Source: Octopus vulgaris (Eukaryota). From it: a stretch of 64,000 bases of DNA. This document shows positions 9,185 through 54,267 of the stretch, piece after piece (the stretch's first letter is position 1; the number at the start of each line of letters is the position of its first letter). The notes under the pieces are model-generated. The model ran no database searches. It saw only the letters and a program-made list of their open reading frames with translations, and had not been told where the DNA came from. The position numbers and the translations under genes are program-made. Location of the stretch: contig OX597814.1 of assembly GCA_951406725.2 (NCBI GenBank), positions 146,940,001 through 147,004,000 on the forward strand, given 5' to 3'.

Positions 9185-9960
9185 ATTGTTAAAAGGACAA
9201 CCAACATTAAGGCAAGCCAAACATCTCAAGTTGTGTACAATATTATTATTGGAAAATATTTGAAGTTTTACAGCTTTTTTTGGGGGTGGGGGGGTATCCC
9301 CGAGTATGGGATATTCTTTCTCTGTGACAAATAGGGGAAAGGAGAATGGTACATATTAATGAGATGACTACACTGAGGAAGTGATTAAAGAAATAAGGAG
9401 ATGGGTAGAGAGGAGAGAAACAAAAAAGGCTTAAACAATTTATAATTTAGCATCATCATGTTGCAGAAACAAGTGCTTGATTCCTTAGGTCGTATCCTGA
9501 GTATATCCATGGGTATAATACCTTGGAGGTAATCCTGTGTAGGTCCACGTAGGTTAAGGTCTCGATATGGCACGATCCTTAGAGAAAAACGGGTACGAAT
9601 ATCTCAAAGTTAAATGGGAACTTAGTAGATTTAGGATACTCAAGATAAGCCCCTAAGGACTCAAGCTTTGGTTTCTGCAACATCAAAGCTAAATTATAAG
9701 ATTTTATGTATTTTGCCATTAATCTCCTCGCTCCCGATCTCCCTAGTCCTTTAATCACATGCTCTGTGTAGTCATCTCATTAATATACACCATTCTCTTT
9801 TTCCCTATTTTCCATATTTGATCCTGATGATGGAATATCACATAGTCGGGGATATCTCAGAAACAGCTGAAAGGCTTTAAATGTTTACCAATAAAAATAT
9901 TCTATACAACTTGAGATGCGTGCCTTGCTTTAACGTTGATTGTCCTTTTCAGCAATTATA
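9185..9960. mobile_element. Fold-back element with ~235-bp diverged inverted arms (Penelope-like pLTR pair)
   Basis: 9185-9420 is the reverse complement of 9720-9958 (e.g. attaatgagatgactacac / gtgtagtcatctcattaat); starts right after a (TA)n tract. Confidence 0.7.
9816..9882 (+). ncRNA. Degenerate minimal hammerhead ribozyme motif
   Basis: CTGATGA-tggaatatc..gatatctca-GAAAcagctg; cleavage triplet reads GAA here but GTA in the opposite arm. Confidence 0.5.
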
Positions 9961-10216
9961 TATTCGCTGAATCAGAAACTTGCTTGGGCCCCATAACTAC
10001 CGACTCGGTTATAAAGTTTGAGTCCTACTAATCCGTTACAGCGCTCACCTAGCGTACCTGATCGTTTAGATGCCCTGTGAACAAAATTCCCATACTATAT
10101 TTTATATATATATATATATATATATATATATATATATATATACATGTGTGTGTGTGTGTGTATGTATATATGTATACATATGTATTTATGTAGGTATGCA
10201 TGTATATATATATATA

Positions 10217-10678
10217 TTCTTTATTTGTTTCAGTCGTTGACTGCGGCCAAGCTAGAGCATCACCTTTAGTCGAAAAAATTGACTCCTGCAATCAATTATT
10301 CTTTCTAAGCCTAGTATTTATTCTATCGCTAAATTTTGCCAAAAAGCACACCAACGTCGGTTGTCAAGTGATGGTGGGGAGAAAAATACAGGCACACAAA
10401 CACACACACACACACACACACACACATATATATATATATATATATATATATATATATACATACATATATGTATATATATATATACATATGGTTGTGTGTG
10501 TGTGTGTGTGTGTGAGACGGGCTTCTTTCAGTTTCTGTCTACCAAATCCACTCACAAGGCTTTGATCGGCCTGAGGCTAAATTTGAAGGGACTTGCCCAA
10601 GGTGCTACGCAGTTCGACTGAACACAGAACCATGTGGTTGGTAAGCAAGCTACTTACCACACAGCCATTCCTGCACCT
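10217..10678 (-). mobile_element. SINE family A, near full length
   Basis: Head, internal (CA)/(TA) microsatellite and 3' tail all present. Confidence 0.9.
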
Positions 10679-50930: not shown

Positions 50931-53887
50931 CTATCTATAAATGCTCTAATATCTATACAGCCTTGTTTTTTTTATCTTATTACAGAAAAAATTCTTATAT
51001 ATATATATATATCAGGGGCGGCAGCGCATAGCTATGATGTGCATATGTAGAAACTCGATAACGTAAGAAATCTTTTGACTGTAATTTTGTCCTAGAGAAT
51101 ATTTCACGCAGTAGGCAGATAGGTGTAAACATTGTAAGCACAGTACTCCCGAATCAGCATGTTGAATGGATGCATTTCGGGGTGGTTGTCTCCTCCTCAG
51201 CTACAGAGACTGGAAACGCAGAAGCTGTGAAATAATACAGGAAAGAGGTCCCGCTTATGGCATTCCTGCCATGATTCAGTCACTGGTTTTGATATTCAGC
51301 GGCTCGCCGTGAGTACTTTACTGGGTGACAGCGCTAAGTAGTCCATTTTCTCCATGACAAAATACAGTGAATGGTATTCTTTCGAATTTGAACATGCGTC
51401 TAGCATATTTGCAATGTTAACAAGATATTTTGCATATGTGTGTGAATGTTTGTTTGCGCGTGTGTGTATGTGTGTGCGACCTTATGTGTACATTTGTGCG
51501 TCTACTTAAACATATATGTTCTATATATATATATATATATATTCAGCTAAAAGCTATGCCTACCTATAAAGGAACATGGATTCTTTTCTCGGAAGCTGTG
51601 TACGGTGATTGAAATAGCACATAATATTTTAAATTATTAATTACGTTATTGCGCCAAAGAACTTTCGTACTGTTAAATAATGTATAATGATCGTTCACAA
51701 TATAATCATTTTCATTTGATTGATGATTAGAATGTCGTTATATATGCGGCCGCATTGGCGTTCAAACTTATGATTGCTGCTGGAAATATATTTAAATAAA
51801 TACATAGCTGTTTGCTCAAGAAATGCTTGTTTTCTTTGTATTCCCAGTATATCGATTAACTCGCCCCCAAACAACATGTGTTTGTTCACCTCTCATATTT
51901 AAACTTCTGGCTCACATGATTCATTTTATCACAGAAACAGCGTTAAAATGCTTTGCTATAGTCTGTCATTATGTATTTGTCTGGAAGATGATTGATTACC
52001 TTATGTGTATATGTTCATGTAAATAATGTTGTTTATTCATATTTTGCAGTGGGATATATTTTGTATAATCAGTTAGTCGTCTTGCCAAAGATAGACTAGC
52101 ATCAGTATTATATTTCATAGCGTCGACCTTTTCAGTTATTGAGCAACAGAGAAACTTCTCGTGACATACACTTTGTTTACATTTAGAAACTTAACGCGTC
52201 TGGGAAATTATACATGTGCAACAGGGAATATTAATTTATTTGGCTGCTATGTTTAAAAAAAAAAAGAGTAAAGAAAAAGACAGGCACCCCAACATCGATT
52301 TATCATGTTTTTACCGATCATATGCTGCGCAGTGGAGTAACAATCAAATATAATTATATTTAATGATACCATTTAACGTCAAACAACATGCCAAGTAGAA
52401 ACCTGTCTGTGTTGTAAACAAATTTGAAAATTCCTTTGTGTATTCGCTACGTACTTTTCTTCATATTTTAATATTTTACTTTTTCAAAAAGCTGCTTAAA
52501 ATGATCTTGACATAGCCTGGGAATACTAATGCCTACATTTGTATTCTTTCTAGAAAACGATACTAGCATGAAAGATACAGAAGACAGGGATATCTCGGTT
52601 ACGAATTCAAAATATTTTCAAAGAGTAATTGAGTCTGATACATTACTTAATAGGCATTGCACTGAAAGAAGTTCGGTAGAATTTCGTAATGAATCGAAGT
52701 TACATAATCACCATATTCTAAGAAGAAATCATCCATAGTTGAATTTTTATCTTTAACAATTAAAAATTTTTATTGCTATGAATCACAATAAGTAAGAAAC
52801 TGTTGTACGCTTAGAGAAAAAATTGTGATCGAAAAGCATTTTCAGTCACCAATTAGTTTTTGATGTTCTATGATATTACGTATTCATCTCCTACGGGTAC
52901 TAACATCACACATAGATAGAAAATATTTGATTGCGTTTAAAATATGCATTCAGTAGTAGTTGTGTAGGCAGAGAGGAAAAAAAGACGTAATAGACTTTCT
53001 TCAAGAGGAAACAATGAAATCTGTTTGTGTGTGTGTATATATATATATACATATATATATACACACGTAAACATTTGTGCGTGTGAATGAGTGTGTGTGT
53101 ATTTGTGTGTAAGTGAGTGAGTGTGTGTATGTATTTGTGTGTCAGTGAGAGAGTGTGTGTGTTGTATGTGTATGTGTGAGTGAGGCTGGATCCGAACAAC
53201 TAGGCCGTATTCTACTGAATAGTAGGTGCTTCATTATTTGCAGATATGTCACTCCTTGAAATCGATTAATATAGTGAACAAAAAACAATTCATAAAACAG
53301 AAGCCGTTTTCATTAGTGATTCCCATCTGACAAAAACATTCTAGTGCGCCCTTTTACGCTTCAATACGCTTTGAACAAATAGACTGTCGCAAGGAAATAA
53401 ATAAACAAAAGACATCAGCACGATGTCGTATGCTTCTAGTAATCATTTACATCCTAATGTGTTGTGATTGCTATGGAGACACCAAACAATAAATACCTAA
53501 CTTATTTTAATCACATATCGATAAAAACTAATTTTATTCTGGAAAAAAAAGTATAATATATACCAGTTCACATAATTATAGCGTCTGTAAAATTGGGAAA
53601 GCCTGTTATACATAGTGAACAAAACTCGTTGATCATGTATGAAAAAAATATTAGAGCGCTTGAACATAGCTGAAATAGTTGTATATATACAGAAATAATT
53701 CTACAAATTATATAGGAAATTTAGACGGTATGCAAAATCAACAATATTTTCAACCGAAGGATCTCTTACGCTTACAGACACGTACAGGCGCAAAAACACA
53801 TTGTTACAAACACACATACATACATACATGCATACACACAGATATGTATATATATATATATATATATATATATATATATATATATAT

Positions 53888-54206
53888 AAAGGAAATGAAG
53901 AAAATGCTGACAAAATATTTTAAGTAAGGGAGAGTGTATTTAATTAGGTGAAAGTTCTTTTTACCGGTTGCGTATTTGTTATGCTTATCAAAAGATATTT
54001 TTTAAAGAGAGATAGGGTTCCTTTCTGATAGATTTTTTCTCTTATCAGATAAGAGAAAAAATCTATCAGAAAGGAACCCTATCTCTCTTAAAATAATATC
54101 TTTTGATAAGCATAACAAATACGCAACCGGTAAAAAGAACTTTCACCTAATTAAATACACTCTCCCTTACTTAAATTATTTTGTCTGCATTTTCTTCATT
54201 TCCTTT
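53888..54206. repeat. ~160-bp-arm palindrome with 1-nt centre (54047)
   Basis: ..ttttttctcttatc|a|gataagagaaaaaa..; arms nearly identical. Confidence 0.95.
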
Positions 54207-54267
54207 TTTCATATATCACAACTCGTGTTCCACATCTCCTTTTTTAAATATATATATATATATATAT

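What the first reader, a model, noticed from the sequence alone, without database searches (positions are those of the whole stretch)
9185..54260. (TA)n-associated, non-coding fold-back elements carrying minimal hammerhead ribozymes (retrozyme/Penelope-like system)
Seen: several mutually dissimilar 0.3-0.9 kb non-coding segments lie in or next to (TA)n tracts (9185-10090, 32781-33190, 38545-39007, 50580-50990, 53888-54260). Each has an inverted duplication, a CUGANGA..GAAA..NUH core with a tiny near-palindromic stem III, or both. Known: Penelope-like elements carry minimal hammerheads in their pLTRs and form inverted or tandem partial copies. Inference: several distinct non-autonomous ribozyme-bearing families target TA microsatellites and arise by RT fold-back, and they may be poorly described in cephalopods.
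Basis: partly seen in the sequence, partly recalled or inferred. Interest (0 to 1): 0.75.

Follow-up and report, generated by a model that had tools for sequence, protein, structure and literature searches.

The report
Penelope retroelement ends and two retrozymes
These five pieces are broken-off copies of five high-copy jumping-gene families of a known kind (three are the tail ends of protein-coding Penelope-like elements, two are protein-less repeats carrying a predicted self-cutting RNA), and their mirror-image shape likely arises because copying starts from both ends of a cut in a TA repeat rather than by a simple fold-back.

Summary
The segments are real, high-copy and (TA)n-bound, but not one new system. 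A and D are 3' ends of Hydra-type Penelope-like elements (PLEs); E is the 3' end of a Neptune-type PLE; all three lead upstream into GIY-YIG frames in longer copies, and D and E also into RT frames. B and C are non-coding tandem units (549, 497 nt), each with a type I hammerhead: non-LTR retrozymes. Only the window's C copy keeps an intact core. A's cut site is mutated, D's core is decayed, B's copy lacks the ribozyme, and E has a variant motif (U3-A8, C13). B and D families use CCGAUGA. In 55 of 65 inverted insertions one arm ends at an internal TA-rich site and the other at the terminal site. At a hairpin hot spot the centre base is T in 24 and A in 14 of 38, against simple fold-back. B assembles as a closed 549-nt loop in two probable RNA runs. 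Octopus Hydra PLEs, (TA)n targets, tails and retrozymes are in print, and this scan already noted a CCGAUGA retrozyme in this genome and two-site priming in others. Verdict: new members of a known kind; cleavage untested.

The parts
9178..9615 (-). Family A (Hydra-type PLE 3' UTR): inverted, tail-less arm ending at the internal TA-rich site; probably extends to about 9630
9652..10096 (+). Family A: tailed arm ending at the terminal site, followed by (TA)n; arms 75% alike (old insertion)
9824..9871 (+). Family A hammerhead, core CUGAUGA, palindromic stem III; cleavage triplet mutated (UA reads AA) in this copy
32781..32932 (-). Family B (549-nt retrozyme unit): inverted, tail-less arm ending at the internal TATATA site; a 19-nt duplication lies at the junction (32911-32949)
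32948..33191 (+). Family B: tailed arm; truncated downstream of the family's hammerhead, so this copy has no ribozyme
38549..38989 (-). Family C (497-nt retrozyme unit): long arm ending at the internal site; spans the predicted cut site
38712..38759 (-). Family C hammerhead, intact: core CUGACGA, stem II, GAAA, palindromic stem III, UA cleavage site
38972..39015 (+). Family C: short inverted arm ending at the terminal site; junction in a natural palindrome of the unit
50576..50690 (-). Family D (Hydra-type PLE 3' UTR): inverted 5' piece starting at a third TATAT site, no duplication
50678..51001 (+). Family D: main arm ending at the internal site, followed by (TA)n
50883..50926 (+). Family D hammerhead, decayed in this copy (family core CCGAUGA, U4C)
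53878..54049 (-). Family E (Neptune-type PLE 3' UTR): inverted, tail-less arm; hairpin centre at 54047 is a family hot spot (about 60 loci)
54045..54250 (+). Family E: tailed arm with 34-nt tail, followed by (TA)n
54103..54132 (+). Family E hammerhead-like motif UUGAUAA-stem II-GCAA-CCGG-UA (U3-A8 plus C13; stem I weak); one stem II change in this copy

Best explanation
The five segments are independent, 5'-truncated insertions of five high-copy families: A, D and E are 3' ends of protein-coding Penelope-like elements (Hydra-type, Hydra-type and Neptune-type by motifs), B and C are non-coding tandem hammerhead units likely copied in trans by a Hydra-type element, and the mirror-image arms likely form because both ends of a cut in (TA)n prime reverse transcription. 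Shown: family membership, upstream frames, tandem units, two fixed 3' sites per family (34 nt apart in E, about 100-140 nt in A-D), one arm per site. Inferred: the GIY-YIG nuclease cuts both strands of (TA)n; one 3'-OH primes at the terminal TA-rich site of the RNA, the other at the internal one; the two cDNAs are joined head to head through short self-complementary ends, with or without a snap-back step; the hammerheads work as dimers through palindromic stem III and release B and C monomers that circularise.
For: Upstream frames: E leads to RT + CX4CxxC linker + GIY-YIG (784-aa open frames in sister copies with both Pfam domains above cut-off); D and A lead to CxCX5C linker, GIY-YIG-like core and CxxC/CxH motifs as defined for Hydra. 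B and C: head-to-tail units of 549 and 497 nt, longest sense frame 40 aa or less, one hammerhead per unit. Hammerhead stems change in compensating fashion between A/D, B, its sister B2 and C and share the layout of the Hydra table of Craig et al.. Geometry: 55 of 65 inverted insertions in 143 loci use one internal and one terminal site, 1 uses both terminal, none both internal, 9 have one arm ending elsewhere. At the E hot spot 38 of 40 loci have exactly one tail and the centre base on the tailed strand is T in 24, A in 14, both within the same haplotypes. In A, D and E the tail-less arm reaches more than 15 nt further 5' in 8 of 31. In vitro, a lizard PLE cuts and extends both strands and starts at two RNA sites that bound the tail.
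Against: No autonomous element sharing sequence with B, B2 or C was found in 51 + 20 Hydra/Neptune regions, or among all loci held apart from other copies of these units, so the partner is inferred from architecture only. Clades rest on motifs, not on a tree; D's nuclease scores below the Pfam cut-off (E = 0.02). 18 of 55 arm pairs stop within 15 nt of each other, which looks like snap-back. Deletion at palindrome centres after insertion could mimic unequal arms. In tandem B and C a long tail-less arm can contain the terminal site, so arm length is not decisive there. Only 15 of 81 truncated 5' ends abut (TA)n. Loci are the top-scoring copies, not a random sample. No cleavage was tested.
Confidence: 0.72

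Rival explanations
1. Same families, but the inverted arms arise by self-priming (snap-back): one cDNA, or an antisense RNA as proposed by Arkhipova et al. 2013, folds back and is copied, and the second end is joined at the first TATATA it meets.
For: Perfect or near-perfect hairpin junctions are common (18 of 55 within 15 nt; about 60 loci at one E site); arms of one locus differ less (2.5 substitutions) than arms of different loci (5.0) and share private variants; the idea is in print.
Against: Snap-back from the tailed cDNA predicts A at the E centre in every copy; T is found in 24 of 38. It cannot give a tail-less arm longer than the tailed arm (8 of 31 in A, D, E), a tailed arm that never reaches the internal site (L142), or the window's D inversion without duplication. 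A symmetric hairpin whose ends are assigned later is not excluded by the centre test.
Confidence: 0.2
2. The (TA)n tracts are partly made by the element: the telomerase-related RT would stutter on the UAUAUA priming site or the tract would expand after insertion, so TA is product as much as target.
For: Primed ends abut (TA)4+ in 94 of 138 cases but truncated 5' ends in only 15 of 81.
Against: In the youngest family 6 of 11 truncated ends abut TA; in the one well-testable case (L078) the host repeat carries a TA run in 48 of 49 empty matches (only 3 of 83 insertions were testable); (TA)n preference is reported for Hydra elements.
Confidence: 0.12
3. One reading: all five are non-autonomous families with minimal hammerheads formed by RT fold-back.
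For: The window copies are non-coding and B and C are non-autonomous.
Against: A, D and E continue into nuclease frames, D and E also into RT frames; helix III is present; geometry as above.
Confidence: 0.04

Closest known systems
Hydra clade of C-terminal EN+ Penelope-like elements, including Hydra-1_Obim of Octopus bimaculoides (Craig et al. 2021, PMC8557442)
   Same: A and D: CxCX5C linker, CxxC and CxH around the conserved E and N, RT motifs like those of Hydra-1_Obim, (TA)n insertion, hammerhead with long palindromic helix III.
   Different: Different hammerhead sequence from Hydra-1_Obim; D and part of A use CCGAUGA, absent from all 26 Hydra rows of file S2; tails of about 120-140 nt instead of 30-40; a young relative has 980-1091-aa frames plus 1.2-1.6 kb of UTR, above the 'generally <3 kb' of the paper.
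Neptune clade PLEs
   Same: E: CX4CxxC linker and GIY-YIG core that line up by eye with the Neptune rows of fig. S2; partial tandems, inverted pLTR, 34-nt tail.
   Different: No canonical hammerhead in the 3' UTR; instead a fixed U3-A8/C13 motif with a weak stem I; one-base hairpin hot spot.
Metazoan non-LTR retrozymes (Cervera and de la Pena 2020, PMC7229834; Li et al. 2026, bioRxiv 10.64898/2026.07.22.740005)
   Same: B and C: short non-coding tandem units, GC 39% and 34%, one type I hammerhead per unit, dispersed monomers to multimers.
   Different: Longer than the mussel units (350-390 bp); inserted with PLE-style inverted arms, two priming sites and (TA)n targets; B has U4C; no cephalopod case in the passages and searches I saw.
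PAc (Poseidon of Anolis carolinensis) in vitro mechanism (Frangieh et al. 2024, PMC11167929)
   Same: Two RT start sites bounding the tail; both strands cut and extended; AT-rich targets.
   Different: Here both sites are TA-rich and can pair with the target, whereas PAc starts at a site unlike the cut DNA; the one-arm-per-site rule in inverted insertions is not stated in the parts I read.
L1 twin priming (recalled, no paper read)
   Same: Second DNA end primes at an internal RNA site and gives an inversion (window D copy).
   Different: Here the internal site is fixed and close to the 3' end, so the arms overlap and form inverted duplications.

Membership tests
EN+ Penelope-like element (A, D, E) | RT followed by C-terminal GIY-YIG endonuclease | tested here: met
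   E: RVT_1 and GIY-YIG above cut-off in a 784-aa sister frame and broken frames joined to E's UTR. D: RT and nuclease motifs in broken frames, Pfam GIY-YIG only E = 0.02. A: nuclease motifs in L046 and L051; RT and nuclease fragments in A-like L208 and L209.
EN+ Penelope-like element (A, D, E) | 5' truncation, partial tandems or inverted pLTR, tail at one end | tested here: met
EN+ Penelope-like element (A, D, E) | Hammerhead near the 3' end | tested here: inconclusive
   Met for A (CUGANGA in 25 of 31 motif copies) and D (CCGAUGA in 17 of 21); E has only a variant motif, GCAA in 47 of 48 and GAAA in none (spurious anchor matches dropped: 2, 7, 8).
Hydra clade (A, D) | CxCX5C linker, CxxC/CxH around E and N, no CCHH | tested here: met
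   By inspection of translations against the definition.
Hydra clade (A, D) | RWK and DKT motifs in the RT N-terminus | tested here: inconclusive
   Held A and D copies are truncated or broken there; a young relative about 50% identical in RT has RWR and DKT.
Hydra and Neptune clades | Placement in an RT tree with reference elements | not tested
   Reference proteins were visible only in a supplement, not held as sequences.
Neptune clade (E) | CX2-5CxxC linker before a GIY-YIG core with internal cysteines | tested here: met
   searches compared by eye with two Neptune and two Nematis rows
Non-LTR retrozyme (B, C) | Non-coding tandem unit with a type I hammerhead in each unit | tested here: met
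   549 and 497 nt units; CCGAUGA in 47 of 49 B motifs (overlapping loci included) and CUGAYGA in 32 of 35 C motifs (3 and 2 spurious matches dropped).
Non-LTR retrozyme (B, C) | Accumulates as circular RNA | tested here: inconclusive
   B is one 579-nt contig (549 + 30) in X3 and X5, and pieces covering the same length in X1; X2 is fragmentary. Runs are only guessed to be RNA, and tandem transcripts also close such loops. C is fragmented.
Non-LTR retrozyme (B, C) | Self-cleavage of the RNA | not testable with these tools
   needs in vitro transcription
Minimal PLE hammerhead (Cervera and de la Pena 2014) | Helix III absent or very small | tested here: not met
   A-D have 3-4 palindromic pairs beyond A15.1-U16.1; E has 2.

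The most novel reading that the evidence does not exclude
Penelope-like elements integrate by obligate two-ended, two-site priming: a dimeric enzyme loads both cut DNA ends on one RNA, one at each side of the tail, which would settle how their inverted pLTRs form. Hydra-type enzymes with a 100-140-nt tail signal are the movers of cephalopod retrozymes, one of which (B) accumulates as a single dominant 549-nt circle with a U4C core, and family E carries a working natural hammerhead with U3-A8 and C13.
Probability: 0.3. Interest if true: 0.65.

Novelty: new member of a known kind. Interest (0 to 1): 0.4.

Why it matters
How PLEs build their tandem and inverted structures is named as open by Craig et al. 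2021, and self-priming was the printed guess. Young, abundant families with two fixed priming sites give a genome-scale test that favours priming from both DNA ends, and intact Hydra- and Neptune-type frames in the same genome make it testable in vitro. B adds a candidate circular retrozyme RNA with a variant core. For annotation: such TA-flanked palindromes are PLE ends, not miRNA genes or MITEs.

Tried and rejected
Rfam: only miRNA-type hairpin noise in the window (150 of 423 rows shown), 3 chance hits on B, none at gathering score in 5 loci. The repeat finder was swamped by microsatellites. A ribozyme in B's window copy: the GAAAC there sits in a plain hairpin arm; the real one lies upstream in full units. 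A hammerhead cutting at GUC next to the E hot spot: no fitting core strands by eye; a start site with an initiator-like TCAGAT is possible but untested, and none of 12 long sister copies started there (most are a sister subfamily that lacks the site). Partner search for B, B2 and C: no convincing match (one 66-nt hit at E = 0.03). Empty-site test: 3 of 83 insertions testable. No RNA holder is on record for B. The 5'-flank TA test mis-sorted some inverted copies. Naiad origin rejected for A, D, E: the nuclease is C-terminal. Literature blanks: 'hammerhead' + 'A13C' 0 papers; 'Penelope' + 'twin priming' + 'inverted' 2 unrelated listings; 'retrozyme' + 'octopus' 2 listed, listing only.
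Full report
Setting. The window lies in a 2.8-Gb animal assembly; I did not determine the species. I call the five segments A (9185), B (32781), C (38545), D (50580) and E (53888). Each was searched in the genome and the 30 best loci were kept; these are top hits, not a random sample.

Observation. All five touch (TA)n and belong to high-copy families of different age: best copies are 74-80% (A), 98-99% (B), 90-95% (C), 86-92% (D) and 96-98% (E) identical to the window copy. 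94 of 138 outer 3' ends run into (TA)4+ (A 13/30, B 21/23, C 16/28, D 17/30, E 27/27) against 5.3% of window positions. Truncated 5' ends do so in 15 of 81 (noisy). One B copy sits in the TA run of a common repeat whose empty matches have TA in 48 of 49 (3 of 83 insertions testable). In the window only C keeps an intact hammerhead.

What the families are. E continues upstream through a 1-kb UTR into a GIY-YIG frame with a CX4CxxC linker and an RT. A sister subfamily, 85% alike in this region, has many 784-aa open frames with RVT_1 and GIY-YIG above cut-off. The linker matches Neptune rows by eye. D and A continue into a nuclease with CxCX5C, CxxC and CxH motifs and an RT resembling Hydra-1_Obim, the marks of the Hydra clade. 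So A, D and E are dead 3' ends of coding PLEs. B and C are head-to-tail units of 549 and 497 nt with no sense frame above 40 aa, in arrays of up to about three and a half units in the loci held. A sister of B (B2, about 616 nt, about 67% alike) has many copies identical over the 258 nt scored, so a mover is probably active now.

Ribozymes. Family motifs (spurious anchor matches dropped): A CUGANGA in 25 of 31; B CCGAUGA in 47 of 49; C CUGAYGA in 32 of 35; D CCGAUGA in 17 of 21. Stem I differs between families but keeps pairing (GUCU/AGAC, UAGCG/CGCUA, CUGUG/CACAG in B2, AUCA/UGGU), as does the palindromic stem III. This is the layout of the Hydra table in Craig et al., where no row has U4C. 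U4C is known from a viroid, with lower activity. It also occurs in part of family A (334 matches to an A-type pattern, both forms among the 100 listed); CpG decay can turn CCGA into CTGA in old copies (inference). E has UUGAUAA-stem II-GCAA-CCGG-UA at the expected place in 47 of 48 copies. U3-A8 is a known covariation; C13 I did not find in print (section 8 of PMC3088659 does not mention it, its figure was not visible). Stem I is weak and the sister subfamily has the same motif, so there is no covariation support: it may be active or decaying.

Geometry. Each family has two preferred 3' ends, both TA-rich: 34 nt apart in E, about 101 in C, 121 in B and D, about 139 in A. The stretch between them is the PLE tail. 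Of 143 non-redundant loci, 65 have an adjacent inverted arm: 55 use one internal and one terminal site, 1 both terminal, 0 both internal, 9 have one arm ending elsewhere. In the non-tandem families A, D and E the tail-less arm reaches more than 15 nt further 5' in 8 of 31, the tailed arm in 8, and 15 are level. E has a one-base hairpin hot spot: 114 strand matches, about 60 loci, against 164 arms that read through the site. Of 40 such loci fetched in list order, 38 have exactly one tail and 2 none; on the tailed strand the centre is T in 24 and A in 14, both within shared haplotypes (alignment noisy at poly-A). Snap-back from the tailed cDNA predicts A always. Two cDNAs ending in a self-complementary five-mer with a central T-T mismatch, or two primings plus a snap-back by either, predict both. 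A symmetric hairpin whose ends are assigned later is not excluded by this test but does not explain unequal arms without extra deletions.

RNA. No holder is on record as RNA. In X3 and X5, from two studies, B is a single 579-nt contig at depth about 200; 579 is 549 + 30, what a closed loop gives at word length 31 (inference). X1 covers the same length in pieces; X2 is fragmentary. X1, X3 and X5 share two letters that are rare or absent in held genomic copies (1 of 49, 0 of 51). A unique flank has no cover in X1, X3 and X5 but 21-fold in X17, which fits RNA. Long tandem transcripts would also close the loop, so a circle is suggested, not shown. C appears as many variant contigs.

Partner. Young Hydra-type families with open frames of about 980-1091 aa exist; two copies show a second end about 115 nt beyond the first. 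B, B2 and C share the Hydra hammerhead layout and long tail but no sequence with any element tested. The partner is therefore inferred.

Comparison with print. Seen: PMC8557442 passages, section 11, supplement rows and part 2 of 59; bioRxiv 10.64898/2026.07.22.740005 parts 1-2 of 5, supplements not seen; PMC4209133 parts 1-2 of 4; PMC7229834 passages; PMC11167929 parts 1-2 of 4; PMC3088659 passages and section 8; PMC3846280 passages; PMC13282606 passages, which count 31 recently active Penelope-like families in Octopus vulgaris and do not use the words hammerhead, ribozyme or retrozyme. L1 twin priming is recalled. Repbase, Dfam and unseen supplements may already hold these families. Seven literature searches were run.

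Verdict. New members of known kinds: Hydra- and Neptune-type PLE ends and two retrozymes. The added value is the one-arm-per-site rule with the centre-base test, the long Hydra tail, the variant cores and the candidate B circle. Earlier notes of this scan reached similar readings on other DNA; they are not independent support.

Noticed in passing
   Followed up: partly
window 49230-49420 (+): Decayed copy of a common repeat (21 held loci) whose better copies carry a minimal hammerhead with CCGACGA, another U4C family. 50463 has a similar decayed start, found only in the window's own locus.
   Followed up: partly
L071:1078-1338; L158-L177; L250: B2: about 616-nt tandem sister of B, copies identical over the part scored, canonical CUGAAGA core with a long AT-rich loop II; shares a covarying multi-hairpin 3' structure with B.
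   Followed up: partly
L293-L310: Young Hydra-type families with 980-1091-aa open frames, asparagine-rich inserts and canonical hammerheads; candidate movers.
   Followed up: partly
L021:1751-2194: Three probable RNA runs show a joint 'back 444' in family C, possibly an expressed variant about 53 nt shorter than the 497-nt unit.
   Followed up: no
L211, L222: Other U3-A8 hammerhead families; one copy in L222 also reads GCAA.
   Followed up: no
window 25371-25465: Short imperfect palindrome not flanked by TA; no match in held loci.
   Followed up: partly
window 14842-15522 (-): Mariner-type transposase fragment (HTH_48).
   Followed up: partly
window 47135-47773 (+): Reverse transcriptase fragment of a LINE-like element (RVT_1).
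   Followed up: partly
window 54269-54670, 10220-10675, 3499-3655: Very common SINE-like repeat with internal microsatellites (111 of 312 held loci); its TA runs often host these insertions.
   Followed up: partly
L242:1030-2285: A second long frame lies upstream of the 784-aa RT frame in the young Neptune-type subfamily, in a different reading frame.
   Followed up: no
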